Origin: Callorhinchus milii
Lineage: Eukaryota
Length of the DNA stretch: 64,000 nt
Assembly: GCF_018977255.1 (NCBI RefSeq)
Contig: NW_024704747.1
Coordinates: forward strand, 23,126,001-23,190,000
Direction of reading: 5' to 3'
Shown here: positions 1 through 63,000 of the stretch, piece by piece
Layout of the letters: every line of letters starts with the position of its first letter
How positions within the stretch are numbered: position 1 is the first letter of the stretch
Position numbers: made by a program

Positions 1-3000
1 TTTACTTTATAGAATATTCTGTGAAATGCTTTGAGACATCTCGAAGATGTGATAAGACGCTATATCAAACACAAGGATTATTATACCAGCCAAGGTCAAA
101 ACTAAGGAGATCTGTCCTATCTTTACATGTCTTTAGTCTGCTTACCCTGGATGCTCCCAACAGCCAGGCAATACAATGAGGAGAAACCCTCAGTTCTCAA
201 CACTGTTATTGCATTATAGTATGCAATAAAGACCTGTAAGCACTTGAAGCTGACACTGAATACCTGGAAAGGGAAAGTATTCAATATAATCTAGAACTCA
301 ACTTGATAGGAGCAATAACATTTCCTGTGAATGAATTTAGTGTAATTCAATATGAATTCCCTCAAATTTAAATGAATTTTGGACCATCAATGTGTAGGGC
401 TAGGGAACATGGGATGGTTTGATCCTTAGACACAGTAAATGGAAGAGCTTAGCAGAGAACAGAGGCCTGAGATTCAAACATTGTCAAACCCAGATTGAGC
501 CACATACCCCTCTAATATGACCAAATAAATCAATAGCTAATAAAGCTAATAAAGGCATCATTCAGAGGCTACTTCATAGCAGCCAGAGAGTGTAACTCTC
601 AGACACATTGGTTGTACTGGGATAAGACTGGAGTTTGTCGAAATTAGAACAAATATAGTTCGTATAGCACCTTTCACTTAAGGAGGAAGTCTGAAAATGC
701 TGGCCACCCAATGTGGGAAGGTAAAAGATGACCAAAAGTGGAGTCAAAGAGACAAGTCTTGAGACCAACCTTGAATGAGGGGAAAGACTGTAATTTCAGA
801 AAGCGGGGCAGAATGGCTGAAAGCCAGCCCGCTGCTGGTGGGCTGACTAACTAAAGAAAAAAAGGTTCTCATGCCTTCAGATGAATAACAAAGCCTTCAA
901 GAGCAGCTTACTGGGGTTAATTTGGGTAAAGAGTTCATAAAAGAACAGGATATAATTCATTAAAAAAAATTGCCTCTGGAACTAAAACATTCGTAAATAA
1001 AAGAGACTTTTTAATATCCTTCACCTGAAGATAGGTTTGAGAGCTTTTTAATAAAACTTGTGTATAACCTAACATTTTCTTCAATTACATTTTATAATGC
1101 TCAAGCCACAATGTATTATTCAATTGAAACTTATTACCATAAAAACAGTCTTATGTTATTCTTTAGAGAGCCAGTCAATTCTGTTAATGATAAGAAATTG
1201 ATTTTGGCGACTGAAACATGTTCAAGTGGAAGCTAACCAAAAGATTCTTACAGGTACAGAAGTGGGATTTTCAGGATCTGGAGTTGGACAAGAAGTTAGG
1301 ATATCACAGAGAGTCAATCCATTATCGCAAACACAGATTTGGCAATCATTTGTATTCCAACTCTCTCCGTTACTTTTTATCACTCCATCAAATATGCAGG
1401 TGAAATCTAGAAAACAAATGTACAAGAGAACTGAAATCCACAGATATAAAACAATGGATACATTTCCATTTTGAACTCTCAATGGTATATGTTAGGTGCA
1501 TATAAATGACACATCCGGATATGAAAGACACTATATCAAATGTAAGATTATTAATTATTACTATTACTACTCTGCTCTTTCCCCAAACCCTCTGTGTTCA
1601 ATAATGTGATAAATGTAACTTGAAAAGCCATTTGTTAATGTGACACTTCCGATTAAGAGCAGAAATTGCTATTTGCACCTGTCATTATTGTAGCATTTTA
1701 CACTTTACACTCTAGAAAGCAGTATTCAATAACCTTCAATAAGTAATGTGATCAGTGTTCAGTGTACAAACACTCTCTTTTTCAAATCACCCTTCAGAAA
1801 AATAATGTTCAGCAGAGGTTCACTCCTCCAATCATTGAAAAGGAGAGAGAAGTGAATATTCACTCCTCCCAGATCATCTCGGGCACAACAAATTACATTT
1901 GTATAGCGCCTTTCATGTCAGGAGGACGTCCCAAGGTGCTGGACATTCAGGGATTTGGACATCAGAACACATTTAGCCTGTGTTTTGAATCAGAAGGCGA
2001 AGTCAATCGATTTGTGATAAAGAAAAACAAATAATTACAAACAATATATACAAAATAAAAATGTCCATTACTTCATATCATTTGGCACTAGTTTAACTTT
2101 AACAGTGAAGTGTGGTGATGGCTGTTGATAAGTCCTGACTAGGATAAGACTGTATCATATCACACCCCAATAGTCTACGAGCAAATAGAAATATGATACA
2201 GATCACATTAGTTCTAAGTCAGACATTGCCTAACTTTCTCTTAAAAATAAAGCATTTTGTATACTTTAACTGCCTATACAATCTGTATTACATCCCAAGA
2301 AATAGTCAAGCAACACTGTACTTCTTGAAATTGTTCAAAAATCTAGAGCTATCAGCTGAGGCTTCACTAGTGTAGAAATCCTCTCACTTTAAAGAAAATC
2401 GATCTTACGCTGCAGTTAAAAAGATGTTTGCTTTGCAAGATCAAGGATAAATTCCTGGATTTTATCCCAGATTTAACTCAACTGCTATCTATTTATTGAA
2501 AGACAATGCCGGAGAGCAAAATAATCTAAAATAACACTTACCATTTTGTGCCCTTGTTAATGACGCCTGCGTTATTACAAGTAGGAGGAAAGTCCCTGTG
2601 TGCACAAAGCTATCCATGTCTGCTATTAGACACAAGCCTCTCCTTGCAAATCAAAGGGCGAGTGATTCTTAATGTTCTAACATCAAGTCAAAACGTATTC
2701 CTTCTCCTTTCAGCACAATCTCCAGGTCAAATAGCAATCTTGTGTCCAGTGATAATGCTTTAAATAGAAGTACAGCTGGCAATGTGTATCCTCGTTTCTT
2801 TCCCCTGAAAATTGTGCCTCAATTTGAGATCCTTAGAATATTACAATGTTTACTCATCGAGTTAAACAGAGAAGGGGAAATCCTCTGAGATTTAATTTTC
2901 AGTTTCTGCTGGAACAAGTTAATAGTTTGATTTCTTTCCAAATTTTAGTGTAACATCTATTTGGAAAAGGGGTAAGGGCAGACAGAGCCAAATTCAAATA

Positions 3001-60000: not shown

Positions 60001-63000
60001 TGACACAAATATGTTTAATCCCTGCAATACTACTAATAATAACAATCTTTCCACTTGACATGATGGCTTACAACATAATTGAAATGTTCAGTGCTTCATA
60101 AGATGAACTATGAAGTGTAGCGAGTGTATTTGTAGATTAATATAGAATCTAATATTTACACAGCAATATGCCACAAATAACTATGAAGAGAATGACCAAC
60201 TTTATCTGGTGCACTATTGGCCAGGACATCTGGAGAAACTCCCTTGTCTTTTCGAACAGTACCATGGTGACAATTTAATATCCAAATGAACAGGTAAACG
60301 GTACCTCAGTTTAATTTCTCATCGGAGAGATGTCACTTCTGACAACATAATGCTCTTCCAGGATTACACTAGATTATCATGTTATACTGTCATCTTAATG
60401 TCCCTGCATGGGATTTGAGTCCCACAACCTGATGTCATTTGGGACCATTAGGGCCTACATCATTAATTGAATCTTTTACTGGCTGTGTGATAATAGGATT
60501 ATCATGTTACAAGCAGATTTACTGAGAGCAAGTAGAGAATCAAAGCATTAGTCAAGCTACTTACATCCTTTCCTCGTAACCCAGGTGGACCCAATGGACC
60601 AGGAGGACCTTGTGAACCCTGCAATGGGAAAAATGCTGAACAGGTTAAGCAGTGCTGATGTGACTTTTTGTGTTACACGGTATGATAGACTCATTACAAT
60701 ACAGTAATTCTTCATCTTAAAGAAGCACTGACAGAATGTGAGGCATCGGCACTGGTTCTGACATTACATATTCATCACATGAAGCATGGAGCTCTATATG
60801 CAAAAAATGGAATCCATAGTTTTACCATTTGTGAGATTGAGCTCAACTCGTCATTGAAAAAGAAAAGATCTATCATACGTGGATCAGTAAAAAGAATGAC
60901 CTTTACATCTAATGAAAAAAGATGGGTCTCAAAGATGGGTACAGTGAAGGGACATGATGGAGAGAGAATTTCTGCGATCCACATCTTAACTCTACCAATT
61001 ATTCCTTTATTATTGTTAATGCAATAAAATTCAGAGCCGTTCTCATGATGGTGTATTGGATGGAGATGCATCTTACGCACTAAATCGGTACCAATCCTGG
61101 TCTTTGCTGAGTTTGCTGGTCTCAGCAGGTGCTACATTGGGAAGCTAGAATTATTACTAAAAAATTATTAGTAACTGATTTGTGAGAAAACAAAAAACTG
61201 TATTCTGCAGTTGCCTGGTAACGTCAGAAACCTTCTGCTTCTAATAATAAGAATCAATTGCCTGGTCACAAATGGATGTTTGGGTGAAATAAATGGAATC
61301 CTATGGACTGACCTTTTCAAACACTGTATTATTTAGTACATCACTCTACAAGTACTAATTATAGTATTCTATCCGTTGTTAGATACTCACACTGGAGCCA
61401 GGTGACCCGGGCTCACCTGCTGGGCCTTGATAACCTTGAGAACCCTGGAGTAATCGAAACATCACACATTATTATTTGGGCTGAAACAGTGTGAACGTTT
61501 ACACAGTATTTGATGAATATGTCTGAATTGTCTGTCGTTGACTAATACAGCTGCTTATTTCAAGCACGCTTTCCCTAAGTAGCGAATTCAGCGTCGGAAT
61601 CTGAGATGAAGTGGAAACATTTATGAATAAAACAGAAGAGCAATAAAGTTTTACCATAATATTTTAGTCATAATATGTCACAATGCTATAATATTTTAGT
61701 CATTTATCAATGTTGTTGATATAAAAAAAACACGTTTGTTGCTGATAAAACCAACGAGCGAAGCATACAGTGACTCTTTTCTCGTTATGACTTTTTTATG
61801 TCAATCGAAATGGAACAATTTTCAAATATTCCCATTGATCAATCAGCTGGGAAGGTTCACTAAGATCACAGGAACATAAGGTCACAAAAGTCCACTGTGC
61901 CAAGTTAAAAGAAAGAACGCTGACTAAGTTATTCTACACAACCTCACTCTCATCCTACTAGATTAAATTCTTCGATGTGTAGCCACTGGATTCCTTTTGC
62001 ATTTCCTGACACAATCTTTCTCTGTTGGGCTCCCTCTGTCACCTATACCACGTGTTCACCAAACTCTGTGTAAAGGTATTAAATCTGACTTGTCGGGTCA
62101 CTTTCCCTTTTCTGAGCTTTGTAAACCATGTTAAATCTGTTATTGTATTTGAGTTTGTTGCTGGTTGTTAGACTTTAAATGCTTCACAAAGAACTCCCCC
62201 AATCTTATTTTCCCCAGTGCATGAGCATTCCAAGTGAAAAACTAAACACCCAAACACCAACGGATACTTACAGGTGACCCAGGTGATCCACGAATGCCTC
62301 TCGGTCCTTGAAGGCCCTAAAATAGCACATAAATTTTTAATTTAAGGACTTCATGGAAAGCAGACAAGTTAGAAATGATTTCAGTTATTGACCGTGTACC
62401 ACTTCCGTGGCTGATATATAAAGTGAAAGAAAACCCATCTTACCGGTTGACTAACTATCCCATATGCCCCACCACCACCACCACCACTGAGGCCTTTGAA
62501 ATCCCATCCTACTGGAGGACCATACCCACCAGACCCCTGGAGAGAAGTAAAATCAGAAATCAATACAGTACACATTTACATTTATACAGCACCTTTCACA
62601 TCAGGAGGACTTATTCGCTGTCTTCTGCTCGCGGAATACAAACTGGAAGGAGTCCACATGTCTGTTTTGGGCCCAGTTCAGCTAGATCCTGTATACAACA
62701 ACAACTTGCACTGTACAGCGCCCTCCATGCAGGGTAGCGTCTCAGAGCGCTTACCAGGAGTCCTGTAAGACACGGGTTTACTGTACCACGAATGGAAGAT
62801 TTATCATTTATCTACTATTAGATAGTCTACTTACGCTGCTACCACCGCCGGGTAGGCCTGGAAGTCCAGGGGGACCAGGAGGTCCTGGATAACCATTTCT
62901 TCCAGGTGGCCCGGCCGGACCCTACGAGAAAATAAAAGGGTAAAGAATTTCACTGGAATCAAACTCACATTGATGGGATTAAAGCCTCACCTCTCTACTG

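What the first reader, a model, noticed from the sequence alone, without database searches (positions are those of the whole stretch)
1252..62921. Tandem head-to-tail pair of divergent type III-like collagen genes
Seen: about 29 kb downstream of an intact alpha1(III)-like gene, a second collagen gene starts on the same strand. It has a TATA-like box, a uORF, a 5' stem-loop, a signal-peptide exon MDSFV... and a VWC exon of phase 1 to 0. Known: that phase fits COL3A1 (VWC exons of COL1A1, COL2A1 and COL5A2 are phase 1-1). Mammals have one COL3A1, tail-to-tail with COL5A2, and teleosts lack it. Inference: this is a lineage-specific COL3A1 tandem cluster, probably chondrichthyan, with both visible members remodelled. 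It could supply new homo- or heterotrimeric type III collagens for a specialised tissue such as fin ceratotrichia, dermis or egg case; the tissue link is speculation.
Basis: partly seen in the sequence, partly recalled or inferred. Interest (0 to 1): 0.88.

Follow-up and report, generated by a model that had tools for sequence, protein, structure and literature searches.

The report
Tandem type III-like collagen genes, chimaera
A chimaera-like fish genome carries a nearly complete type III-like collagen gene followed, 29 kb further on the same strand, by the start of a second collagen gene, which points to a small local family of a collagen that is a single gene in mammals.

Summary
All collagen exons lie on the minus strand. 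Gene A shows 48 exons (62921 to 32070): 42 helix exons of canonical fibrillar sizes, all 42 with ag/gt, 339 uninterrupted Gly-X-Y triplets, a Cys-Cys helix end and a four-exon COLFI domain with 8 cysteines. Its signal and VWC exons are off-window, so "intact" is unproven. 29,453 bases downstream, on the same strand, sit a signal-peptide exon (ATG 2617, phase 1) and a 155-nt VWC exon (1406-1252, phase 1 to 0) with good splice sites. That VWC keeps only 6 of 10 cysteines. No COL5A2-like exon lies between.

The nearest proteins are Callorhinchus milii fragments (exon identities 60-95%), and a LINE tail is 96% identical to a C. milii protein, so the source is a chimaera. Named shark and chimaera proteins show at least three COL3A1-clade lineages, differing in the C-propeptide cysteines that decide homo- versus heterotrimer assembly.

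Gene B's helix and C-propeptide exons are off-window, so its completeness and type stay open. The 5' stem-loop can be drawn but is no more stable than shuffled sequence. The tissue link remains speculation. Verdict: real, a new member of a known family, moderately interesting.

The parts
62835..62921 (-). Gene A, first visible exon: N-propeptide minor helix (87 nt, phase 0-0), 27 residues of Gly-X-Y followed by Ser-Ser
   Evidence: ag before and gtaagt after. Pfam Collagen E 0.0024, below the cut-off. Upstream exons (signal peptide, VWC) are not in the window.
62444..62536 (-). Gene A, N-telopeptide exon (93 nt, phase 0-0), glycine-rich, with no clean Gly-X-Y at its end
   Evidence: Read (ccag before, gtaaga after) and from the open frame. 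No Pfam match. A Galemys COL3A1 model has a similar Gly run at this place.
34739..62316 (-). Gene A, 42 triple-helix exons. Sizes in order: 45, 54x5, 45, 54, 45, 54, 99, 45, 99, 54, 108, 54, 99, 54, 99, 54x4, 45, 99, 108, 54x4, 108, 54, 54, 162, 108, 108, 54, 108, 54, 108, 54, 108
   Evidence: Coordinates: 62272-62316, 61391-61444, 60565-60618, 59931-59984, 59607-59660, 59360-59413, 59205-59249, 58595-58648, 57919-57963, 57740-57793, 55905-56003, 55767-55811, 55055-55153, 52900-52953, 51733-51840, 49351-49404, 49152-49250, 48984-49037, 47440-47538, 47152-47205, 46746-46799, 46092-46145, 45827-45880, 45462-45506, 45276-45374, 45090-45197, 44682-44735, 44535-44588, 44097-44150, 43607-43660, 42077-42184, 41470-41523, 40803-40856, 39982-40143, 39534-39641, 38403-38510, 38057-38110, 37503-37610, 36715-36768, 36508-36615, 35968-36021, 34739-34846. 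All 42 are flanked by ag and gt. There is no stop and no non-Gly first position.
34354..34642 (-). Gene A, junction exon (289 nt, ends in phase 1): the last 7 triplets, the Cys-Cys knot, the C-telopeptide and the start of COLFI with cysteines C1 and C2
   Evidence: COLFI E 6.1e-13. Alignment.
33487..33677 (-). Gene A, C-propeptide exon (191 nt) with cysteines C3, C4 and C5
   Evidence: COLFI E 5e-25. 95% identical to C. milii P0001/P0293.
32571..32813 (-). Gene A, C-propeptide exon (243 nt) with the chain recognition stretch and cysteines C6 and C7
   Evidence: COLFI E 3.8e-27. 105.7 bits to human alpha1(III) C-propeptide. 91% identical to P0001.
32070..32216 (-). Gene A, last coding exon (144 nt plus TAA) with cysteine C8
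   Evidence: COLFI E 1.9e-19, reaching the end of the profile.
31902..31907 (-). First AATAAA after gene A's stop (163 nt downstream). Further candidates at 31418, 31147 and 30996
   Evidence: Which one is used is unknown.
2759..2766 (-). Gene B, TATA-like box TATTTAAA, 142 nt upstream of the ATG
   Evidence: Such words are frequent here (54 found, 39.8 expected), so its position is only weak support.
2669..2683 (-). Gene B, 4-codon upstream open reading frame (ATG to TAA), the only upstream ATG between the TATA-like box and the main ATG
   Evidence: Read.
2594..2658 (-). Gene B, candidate 5' stem-loop enclosing the start codon
   Evidence: One fold of 2660-2590 (-19.2 kcal/mol) gives an 8-bp upper stem with AUG in its 3' strand, a 4+4 nt internal loop and a lower stem using AGCUUUGUG. 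The MFE of neighbouring windows (-19.6) is a different pairing. z from -0.9 to -2.1 by window, and 0.24 over 111 nt.
2542..2617 (-). Gene B, coding part of exon 1: a signal peptide of 25 codons plus 1 base (phase 1), starting MDSFV
   Evidence: 46% identical over 24 residues to the first 24 residues of Galemys COL3A1 (E 0.021 within the window). Donor gtaagt.
1252..1406 (-). Gene B, exon 2 (155 nt, phase 1 to 0): the N-terminal three quarters of a VWC domain with 6 cysteines
   Evidence: Pfam VWC 38.4 bits, profile positions 1-44 of 57. Best solved-structure match is collagen alpha1(II) VWC, 25.5 bits, with Ser where its sixth cysteine sits. ag before, gtaaga after.

Best explanation
The window is from a chimaera (Callorhinchus or a close relative). 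It covers part of a head-to-tail array of COL3A1-family fibrillar collagen genes.

Gene A looks like a working pro-alpha chain.
- Its C-propeptide has all 8 cysteines. By the published cysteine code, the chain can therefore form disulfide-linked homotrimers.
- A Cys-Cys knot closes a 339-triplet helix.
- The helix is serine-rich.

Gene B, 29.5 kb downstream on the same strand, is the 5' end of the next member.
- It has a promoter-like TATA word, a roughly 120-nt leader with one tiny uORF, and a possible stem-loop around a strong start codon.
- It has a COL3A1-like signal peptide.
- Its N-propeptide VWC module is shortened and has lost 4 of its 10 cysteines.

What is shown and what is inferred.
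- Shown: the exon anatomy, the domains, the family placement of gene A, and the same-strand arrangement.
- Inferred: that gene B continues into helix and C-propeptide exons beyond the window, that it is expressed, and that the paralogues co-assemble.
For: - Gene A anatomy and domains.
- COL3A1 placement of gene A: 105.7 against 86.1 bits; closest to the 4 chondrichthyan proteins, then to tetrapod COL3A1, among 21 named references, summed over 4 exons; Cys-Cys end; exon 51 inside a 99/99* COL3A1 clade, sister to C. milii P0293 at 99/95*.
- Gene B exons.
- Nothing else collagen-like lies between the genes or on the plus strand. No segmental repeat, only SINE-type families.
- Taxon: best exon hit is C. 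milii at 91%. A LINE tail at 29541-29708 is 54/56 identical to a C. milii protein, against 61-67% for rays.
- A family of paralogues exists. Four named chondrichthyan proteins and four tetrapod COL3A1 form one clade, 100/99*.
- Gene A and P0001 differ in the helix (62%; X/Y positions 44%) as much as the shark-chimaera pair P0003/P0002 does (63%; 45%). They are therefore old paralogues, not species variants.
- Hint of a tandem layout in C. milii itself. P0001 and P0293 are identical except in the last-exon part (509/518). P0001's last 48 residues equal those of P0003 (48/48). This is what a gene model reading through into the next same-strand gene would produce.
Against: - Only 231 nt of gene B's coding sequence are visible. 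No helix exon lies in the 1,251 nt left downstream.
- Its VWC is incomplete (6 cysteines, profile 1-44 of 57), which also fits a decaying copy.
- Neither protein search found a close relative of exon 2: 0 of 91 candidates; 99 hits, all at 47% identity or less, the top ones multi-VWC proteins.
- The stem-loop is not statistically supported.
- Gene A itself is absent from the protein collection (best 91%), so the species is not settled.
- The read-through reading of P0001 is an inference from protein models without coordinates.
Confidence: 0.68

Rival explanations
1. Gene B is an orphan 5' fragment or pseudogene. A partial duplication copied a collagen promoter, exon 1 and exon 2, and the copy is decaying, so no second collagen is made.
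For: - The VWC exon has lost 4 of 10 cysteines and stops matching the Pfam profile at position 44 of 57.
- No further exon lies in the remaining 1,251 nt.
- No close relative in the protein searches.
Against: - Both exons keep open frames.
- The start-codon context is strong, and there are two good donors and a good acceptor.
- Introns of a kilobase or more are normal in gene A (up to 2,328 nt), so the lack of a third exon in 1.25 kb says little.
- Several expressed-looking paralogues exist in chimaera and shark annotations.
Confidence: 0.2
2. Gene B is a fibrillar collagen gene of another clade A type. It could be the local COL5A2 after an inversion, or a type I or II relative. On this reading the pair is not a COL3A1 duplication.
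For: - The VWC exon is not diagnostic. Its best solved-structure match is alpha1(II) VWC.
- It matches a Channa type II-like N-terminus (47% over 32 residues) about as well as Galemys COL3A1 (33% over 48).
- COL3A1 and COL5A2 are linked in other jawed vertebrates (passage in PMC8887668).
Against: - The signal peptide matches the Galemys COL3A1 signal peptide in length and in 11 of 24 residues.
- The 1-to-0 phase of the VWC exon is said to be the COL3A1 pattern.
- Extra COL3A1-clade genes are known from the same lineage.
Confidence: 0.08
3. The arrangement is an assembly artefact. Gene B's two exons would be a misplaced copy of gene A's own 5' end, or of an allele.
For: - Gene A's 5' end is off-window, so it cannot be compared.
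- Tandem paralogues are prone to misassembly.
Against: - The window has no gaps.
- The 29-kb spacer is ordinary unique DNA with dispersed SINE and LINE pieces and no long internal duplication.
- The shortened VWC is unlike what a functional gene A is expected to carry, though this is an inference.
Confidence: 0.03
4. Gene B is not a collagen but another secreted protein that begins with a VWC module.
For: VWC modules occur in many proteins. The top hits of the representative search are multi-VWC proteins. CCN3 and NELL2 also match.
Against: - The best single-domain match is a collagen VWC.
- The signal peptide resembles COL3A1.
- Exon 1 ends in phase 1 right after the signal peptide, as in clade A collagens (recalled).
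- The gene lies directly behind a collagen gene.
Confidence: 0.03

Closest known systems
Tetrapod COL3A1 (pro-alpha1(III) collagen)
   Same: - Gene A shares the canonical helix exon sizes (recalled pattern; sizes).
- It shares the Cys-Cys helix end and the 8-cysteine COLFI domain.
- It shares the four-exon C-terminal layout of 289/191/243/147 nt.
- Identity to Galemys COL3A1 is 53-71% per C-terminal exon.
- Gene B's signal peptide resembles the Galemys one.
   Different: - The next gene downstream is another same-strand collagen start. In other jawed vertebrates COL3A1 is linked to COL5A2 (PMC8887668 passage); the tail-to-tail orientation is recalled.
- Helix serine is 10.3%.
- The helix has 339 triplets. 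The N-telopeptide exon ends without clean triplets and the visible N-propeptide lacks cysteines.
- Gene B's VWC has 6 cysteines, not 10.
Callorhinchus milii proteins A0A4W3J7G2 / A0A4W3J0T1 (P0001 / P0293) and A0A4W3J7G7 (P0003); Pristiophorus japonicus UPI00398EFE09 and UPI00398EFA01 (P0002, P0004)
   Same: - They fall in the same COL3A1 clade (100/99*).
- Gene A is 95% and 91% identical to P0001/P0293 in exons 50 and 51.
- Gene A has the identical 23-residue chain recognition stretch.
- Both helices are serine-rich (10.3% and 9.1%).
   Different: - Gene A is none of them. Its junction exon is 60% identical, its helix 62% and its last exon 37-41 of 48.
- P0003 and P0002 carry Ser at cysteine C3, and P0004 lacks C2. 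Gene A keeps both.
- All five database proteins are C-terminal fragments, so none can be compared with gene B.
Type I collagen chain pair COL1A1 / COL1A2 and the C-propeptide cysteine code
   Same: This family has one chain type with 8 cysteines and others lacking C2 or C3. According to PMC6181919 (section 11 read), that pattern separates homotrimer-capable from heterotrimer-only chains. In that paper a C2-to-Ser alpha1(III) C-propeptide was monomeric alone and was rescued into a trimer by the wild type.
   Different: The type I genes are on different chromosomes (recalled), not in tandem. No assembly experiment exists for the chondrichthyan chains.
Lamprey col3a1 alpha and beta paralogues
   Same: This is another lineage with more than one COL3A1-type gene, with differing expression that includes fin-fold mesenchyme (passages in PMC8887668).
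   Different: Those are described as cyclostome-specific duplicates. No tandem arrangement is stated in the passages I saw.
Collagen 5' stem-loop bound by LARP6
   Same: It is described as two stems flanking a central bulge, found only in alpha1(I), alpha2(I) and alpha1(III) mRNAs, with the start codon inside it (passages and Fig. 1 legend of PMC4615758). Gene B's leader can be drawn that way.
   Different: That fold is not the minimum free energy one in neighbouring windows and is not better than shuffles. The critical bulge bases could not be compared, because no reference sequence came from any tool and Rfam has no such family.

Membership tests
Fibrillar collagen, clade A, COL3A1 type (gene A) | C-terminal COLFI (NC1) domain | tested here: met
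   Four consecutive exons match Pfam COLFI and together cover profile positions 2-233 of 233.
Fibrillar collagen, clade A, COL3A1 type (gene A) | Long uninterrupted Gly-X-Y helix built from 45/54/99/108/162-nt phase-0 exons | tested here: met
   43 exon pieces, 1,017 residues, 339 triplets, 0 non-Gly first positions. 42 of 42 full helix exons are flanked by ag/gt. The canonical size series is recalled.
Fibrillar collagen, clade A, COL3A1 type (gene A) | Cys-Cys knot at the C-terminal end of the helix | tested here: met
   Present in gene A, in 4 of 4 chondrichthyan proteins and in 3 of 3 tetrapod COL3A1 rows. Absent in the 3 type II or alpha2(I) rows.
Fibrillar collagen, clade A, COL3A1 type (gene A) | Groups with COL3A1 rather than with types I or II in a tree | tested here: met
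   Exon 51 alone sits inside the COL3A1 clade, 99/99*. Exon 50 alone gives 91/93. PDB scores are 105.7 against 86.1 bits. No COL1A1 or COL5A2 row was available. No tree of the whole domain includes gene A, because exons were not joined.
Fibrillar collagen, clade A, COL3A1 type (gene A) | COL5A2 as the neighbour at the 3' end on the opposite strand | tested here: not met
   No Gly-X-Y run or COLFI match on the plus strand anywhere in the window. The next collagen feature is on the same strand.
Fibrillar collagen, clade A, COL3A1 type (gene A) | Signal peptide and VWC N-propeptide | not testable with these tools
   These lie outside the window. 62922-64000 holds no candidate.
Clade A fibrillar collagen gene (gene B) | Signal-peptide exon ending in phase 1, followed by a VWC exon | tested here: met
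Clade A fibrillar collagen gene (gene B) | Complete VWC module with ten cysteines | tested here: not met
   6 cysteines. The Pfam match stops at profile position 44 of 57. There is Ser at the place of the sixth cysteine of the alpha1(II) VWC, and nothing corresponds to the last three.
Clade A fibrillar collagen gene (gene B) | Triple helix and COLFI domain | not testable with these tools
   The window ends 1,251 nt after exon 2. No eukaryotic genome collection was available.
Collagen 5' stem-loop (LARP6 site) | Two stems flanking a central bulge, with the start codon inside | tested here: inconclusive
   Such a fold exists for 2660-2590 (-19.2 kcal/mol, z -0.9). The MFE of 2650-2580 is a different pairing (-19.6, z -1.7). 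Over 111 nt z is 0.24, and 108 of 200 shuffles fold as well.
Collagen 5' stem-loop (LARP6 site) | The five bulge nucleotides needed for LARP6 binding | not testable with these tools
   PMC4615758 names them only in a figure. No reference sequence came from a tool, and Rfam gave only chance-level matches in 2400-2900.

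The most novel reading that the evidence does not exclude
Cartilaginous fishes may have turned type III collagen from a single homotrimeric chain into a multi-chain system encoded by a tandem cluster.
- There would be 8-cysteine chains (gene A, C. milii P0001/P0293) that can start trimers.
- Alongside them would be partner chains that have lost C-propeptide cysteine C3 (P0003 in chimaera and P0002 in shark, a pair with 95/94* support) or C2 (P0004).
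- By the published cysteine code, the partner chains can only enter heterotrimers.
- Gene A and P0001/P0293 share an identical chain recognition stretch although their helices are old and divergent. They would therefore co-assemble, and gene B would be one of these partners.

Such heterotrimeric type III-like collagens could underlie a chondrichthyan-specific matrix.
Probability: 0.3. Interest if true: 0.72.

Novelty: new member of a known kind. Interest (0 to 1): 0.5.

Why it matters
COL3A1 is treated as a single, obligately homotrimeric chain in the passages read (CPIII is called an obligate homotrimer in PMC5353611). A preprint title in a search listing says that zebrafish has no COL3A1 ortholog.

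A tandem family in chimaeras and sharks would give a natural experiment on how collagen chain selection evolves. Its members differ exactly at the two cysteines shown experimentally to switch homo- to heterotrimer assembly. The family would also supply candidate genes for chondrichthyan-specific collagen matrices.

The 6 literature searches aimed at this question returned no paper describing such a cluster. The proteins exist only as automatic annotations. Supplementary tables of PMC8887668, which list the C. milii accessions used there, could not be opened and may bear on this claim.

Tried and rejected
- Protein search with gene B's VWC exon against longer proteins: 91 candidates, none at E 0.001 or better.
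- Search of all 1.84 billion representatives with the same exon: 99 hits, none above 47% identity, led by multi-VWC proteins. It gave no family assignment.
- ESM Atlas search with a LINE-like ORF, to find the taxon: best score 0.89, below the level that counts. No help.
- Rfam: no family for the collagen 5' stem-loop. Only chance-level matches in 2400-2900.
- Looked for the reference stem-loop sequence in PMC4615758 and PMC4288179: it is in figures only.
- First helix comparison by free sliding gave non-collinear placements and is discarded. It was replaced by a collinear walk.
- Pfam on 10 long ORFs of spacer and introns: only one reverse-transcriptase fragment, and no other gene.
- Splice-aware scan for small Gly-X-Y exons in 1-1251, 62922-64000 and the spacer: 0 candidates.
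- Not attempted: a complex prediction of C-propeptides, because a pass would follow from likeness to solved trimers and would not separate homo- from heterotrimers.
- Not attempted: genome contigs, which holds bacteria and archaea only.
- The closed collections metagenome contigs and viral contigs were not searched.
Every search, alignment and tree with window sequence was done exon by exon, so gene A has no whole-domain tree.

Full report
**What is in the window.** The 64-kb window has no N and about 38% G+C. It is not human. Its closest matches are proteins of the elephant fish Callorhinchus milii.

Runs of at least five Gly-X-Y triplets occur only on the minus strand, 45 of them between 62921 and 34580. 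So both genes of the finding read from high to low coordinates.

**Gene A.** With a four-triplet threshold there are 46 runs.
- 42 are complete helix exons, each preceded by ag and followed by gt (42 of 42).
- 2 are exons that continue beyond the repeat: the N-propeptide exon 62921-62835 and the helix-end exon starting at 34642.
- 2 have no splice sites and are chance (57457-57422 inside a GC-rich repeat, and 30853-30818).

The helix exon sizes, in order, are 45, 54x5, 45, 54, 45, 54, 99, 45, 99, 54, 108, 54, 99, 54, 99, 54x4, 45, 99, 108, 54x4, 108, 54, 54, 162, 108, 108, 54, 108, 54, 108, 54, 108. As far as I recall, this is the series of clade A fibrillar collagen genes.

Counted exon by exon, the helix has 1,017 residues in 339 triplets, with no stop and no missing glycine. 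Serine is 10.3% and alanine 3.1%.

The C-terminal exons are 289, 191, 243 and 144+3 nt. Each matches Pfam COLFI (E 6e-13, 5e-25, 4e-27, 2e-19), and together they cover the whole profile.

The helix ends in Cys-Cys, and the C-propeptide has eight cysteines.

Upstream of the helix there are two more exons. One is a minor-helix exon of 87 nt. The other is a glycine-rich telopeptide exon of 93 nt.

The 1,079 nt above 62921 hold no recognisable exon. The signal-peptide and VWC exons of gene A are therefore outside the window, and the word "intact" cannot be checked. 48 exons are visible.

**Gene A is of the COL3A1 kind.**
- Exon 51 scores 105.7 bits against the human alpha1(III) C-propeptide and 86.1 against alpha1(I). 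Five distinct sequences matched in all.
- Against 21 named reference proteins, the summed scores of the four C-terminal exons rank the four chondrichthyan proteins first, then tetrapod COL3A1, then type II and alpha2(I) chains.
- In single-exon trees, exon 51 lies inside a COL3A1 clade (99/99*) as sister of C. milii P0293 (99/95*). Exon 50 lies in a weaker COL3A1 group (91/93).
All searches, alignments and trees with window sequence are per exon, so no whole-domain tree includes gene A.

**Gene B.** Its ATG lies 29,453 nt beyond gene A's stop codon, on the same strand.
- TATA-like TATTTAAA at 2766-2759.
- A single upstream ATG opening a four-codon uORF (2683-2669).
- An ATG at 2617 with A at -3 and G at +4.
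- 25 codons of a signal peptide beginning MDSFV, then one base, then gtaagt.
- A 1,135-nt intron.
- A 155-nt exon (1406-1252) behind a pyrimidine tract and ag, ending before gtaaga.

Exon 2 matches Pfam VWC above the curated cut-off (38.4 against 27.6 bits), but only over profile positions 1-44 of 57. Its best solved-structure match is the VWC of collagen alpha1(II) (25.5 bits, E 1e-4), ahead of CCN3 and NELL2. There is serine where that domain has its sixth cysteine, and nothing corresponds to its last three. So the module has 6 of 10 cysteines.

The signal peptide is 46% identical over 24 residues to that of a Galemys COL3A1 model (E 0.021 within the window).

The weak elements.
- TATA-like words are common in this AT-rich DNA: 54 found on both strands against 39.8 expected.
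- The uORF is too short to weigh.
- The stem-loop is a matter of drawing. One fold of 2660-2590 (-19.2 kcal/mol) has an 8-bp upper stem with the AUG in its 3' strand, a 4+4 internal loop and a lower stem that uses AGCUUUGUG. That is the architecture described for the LARP6-binding collagen 5' stem-loop (passages of PMC4615758).
- However, the minimum free energy fold of neighbouring windows is a different pairing (-19.6). z-scores run from -0.9 to -2.1 depending on the window (300 mononucleotide shuffles). Over 111 nt z is 0.24, and 108 of 200 shuffles fold as well.
- Rfam holds no such family.

**Between and around the genes.** A tblastn of four chondrichthyan C-terminal fragments and two collagen N-termini found no further collagen-like piece outside gene A and gene B, and none on the plus strand. 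So no COL5A2 3' end faces gene A within 29 kb.
- A splice-aware scan for small Gly-X-Y exons found none in the spacer or at either window end.
- Repeats are short dispersed families with tRNA-like heads. There is no long duplication that would suggest an assembly artefact inside the window.
- Ten long ORFs gave one reverse-transcriptase fragment and nothing else.
- The first AATAAA lies 163 nt after gene A's stop.

**Whose genome.**
- The best protein for gene A's exon 51 is a C. milii fragment (P0001, 91%). Two sawshark proteins and a second C. milii protein follow at 69-72%. In all, 73 of 131 candidates had E 0.001 or better.
- A LINE tail at 29541-29708 is 54/56 identical to a C. milii reverse-transcriptase protein. 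It is 80% identical to another C. milii protein and 61-67% to ray proteins.
- The source is therefore a chimaera, Callorhinchus or a close relative.
- Gene A itself is not in the protein collection.

**A family, not a single gene.** In a tree of the C-terminal 250 residues of 16 named database proteins, the four chondrichthyan proteins and four tetrapod COL3A1 form one clade (100/99*), apart from type II and alpha2(I) chains.
- The chimaera protein P0003 pairs with the shark protein P0002: 86/92, and 95/94* when P0293 replaces P0001. That lineage is therefore older than the shark-chimaera split.
- P0001/P0293 and P0004 stand apart from that pair.
- The four chondrichthyan proteins group together at 93/89 or 87/86.
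- The alternative, that P0002 and P0003 are the true COL3A1 orthologues and the others are older, is rejected with P0001 (p-AU 0.016) but not with P0293 (p-AU 0.078). The group was named after the tree had been seen.
- "Lineage-specific" is thus favoured but not established.

Gene A is closest to P0001/P0293, but it is not the same gene. Per exon the identities are 60% (junction exon), 95%, 91%, and 41 or 37 of 48 (last exon).

In a collinear, exon-by-exon walk through the last eight full helix exons:
- Gene A is 62% identical to P0001 (146/234; X and Y positions 44%).
- Gene A is 63% identical to P0003 (124/198; X and Y positions 44%).
- The shark-chimaera pair P0003/P0002 is 63% identical (125/198; X and Y positions 45%).

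Gene A and P0001 are therefore old paralogues whose C-propeptide exons 50-51 have stayed, or been made, nearly identical. In the exon 50 tree the three chimaera-type sequences group together (94/96). That would fit gene conversion between neighbours, though it rests on 63 columns.

An indirect sign of a tandem layout in C. milii.
- P0001 (A0A4W3J7G2) and P0293 (A0A4W3J0T1) are identical except in the last-exon part (509/518).
- P0001's last 48 residues equal those of P0003 (A0A4W3J7G7) (accessions).
- A gene model that reads through into the last exon of the next gene on the same strand would give exactly this. It is an inference from proteins without coordinates.

**How it probably works.** Fibrillar procollagen chains choose partners through the C-propeptide.
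- PMC6181919 (passages and section 11 read) reports that all human chains able to homotrimerise keep C-propeptide cysteines C2 and C3. Chains that only enter heterotrimers lack one of them.
- The same paper reports that a C2-to-Ser alpha1(III) C-propeptide is monomeric alone and is rescued into a trimer by the wild type.
- PMC5353611 (passages) describes the chain recognition sequence as 12 variable, 8 conserved and 3 variable residues. It says this sequence dominates the chain interface in the type III C-propeptide trimer.

In the per-exon alignments:
- Gene A and P0001 keep all eight cysteines.
- P0003 and P0002 have serine at C3.
- P0004 lacks C2.
- The stretch that aligns with GNPELPEDVLDVQLAFLRLLSSR of Galemys COL3A1 is identical in gene A and P0001, and different in the other three. 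That this stretch is the recognition sequence is my recollection, fitted to the 12+8+3 description.

Prediction and limits.
- Gene A can start a homotrimer, and it could co-assemble with the P0001-type chain.
- The C3-less and C2-less chains need such a partner.
- None of this is tested.
- Gene B's class is unknown, because its C-propeptide lies outside the window.

**Literature.** Searches for COL3A1 with elephant shark, chondrichthyan, shark paralogues, Scyliorhinus or tandem duplication, and for ceratotrichia or elastoidin collagen, gave no paper describing a chondrichthyan COL3A1 cluster.
- PMC8887668 (passages) lists five clade A genes for jawed vertebrates, says col3a1 and col5a2 are linked, and describes two lamprey col3a1 paralogues.
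- PMC8423624 (one legend passage) reports a 133-fold rise of col3a1 between bowfin fin-bud stages 23 and 26. The same legend says actinotrichia first appear at stage 27.
- A preprint title (search listing only) states that zebrafish lacks a COL3A1 ortholog.
- Supplementary tables were closed. The accession table of PMC8887668 might show how many C. milii COL3A1-type genes others have already handled.

**Verdict.**
- Right: a chondrichthyan, same-strand pair of clade A collagen genes, and a COL3A1-type family in this lineage.
- Open: the completeness and type of gene B, and the lineage-specific origin.
- Unsupported statistically: the stem-loop.
- Speculation: the tissue link.

It is a new member, or small family, of a known kind. 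Interest is moderate, and would be higher if the predicted heterotrimers are real.

Noticed in passing
window 6010-6079 (-), 18254-18325 (-), 11368-11439 (+), 49788-49845 (-), 48691-48751 (-): Five tRNA-like matches (42-52 bits). They sit at the heads of dispersed repeat families D1-D10, which have 3-12 copies in introns and spacer. They look like a tRNA-derived SINE family rather than tRNA genes.
   Followed up: partly
window 11475-11692 and 13990-14207: Two 218-nt arms are 96% complementary and 2,297 nt apart, built from the same SINE-type repeat. They are the best-preserved repeat pair in the window.
   Followed up: no
window 29541-29822 (+) and 54696-54821 (-): These are CR1-like LINE tails. 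The first is 54/56 identical to a C. milii reverse-transcriptase protein (A0A4W3H721) and 61-67% identical to ray proteins. I used it to place the taxon.
   Followed up: yes
window 22611-23386 (+) and 56695-57665 (+): These GC-rich stretches explain the two G+C peaks (0.44 and 0.47). The first has a reverse-transcriptase fragment (Pfam RVT_1, E 7e-10). The second lies in an intron of gene A, has long proline-rich open frames without a Pfam match, and shares a 98-nt repeat (90%) with 9411-9508. They are probably LINE remnants.
   Followed up: partly
database proteins P0001, P0293, P0003 (C. milii): Two 519-residue models differ only in the last-exon part. One of them carries the last 48 residues of a different COL3A1-type protein. 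This suggests a read-through annotation across neighbouring same-strand genes.
   Followed up: partly
database proteins P0002, P0003, P0004 against gene A exons 34642-34354 and 33677-33487: C-propeptide cysteine C3 is serine in one chimaera protein and one shark protein. C2 is missing in another shark protein. Gene A keeps both.
   Followed up: partly
window 33487-33675 (gene A exon 50): In the single-exon tree the three chimaera-type sequences (gene A, P0293, P0003) group together at 94/96, although P0003 pairs with a shark protein over the whole domain. This is a possible trace of gene conversion.
   Followed up: no
window 34739-62316 (gene A helix exons): Serine is 10.3% of the helix and is the commonest X-position residue (59 against 57 proline). 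P0001 shares this (9.1%), while P0002 and P0003 have about 5%.
   Followed up: no
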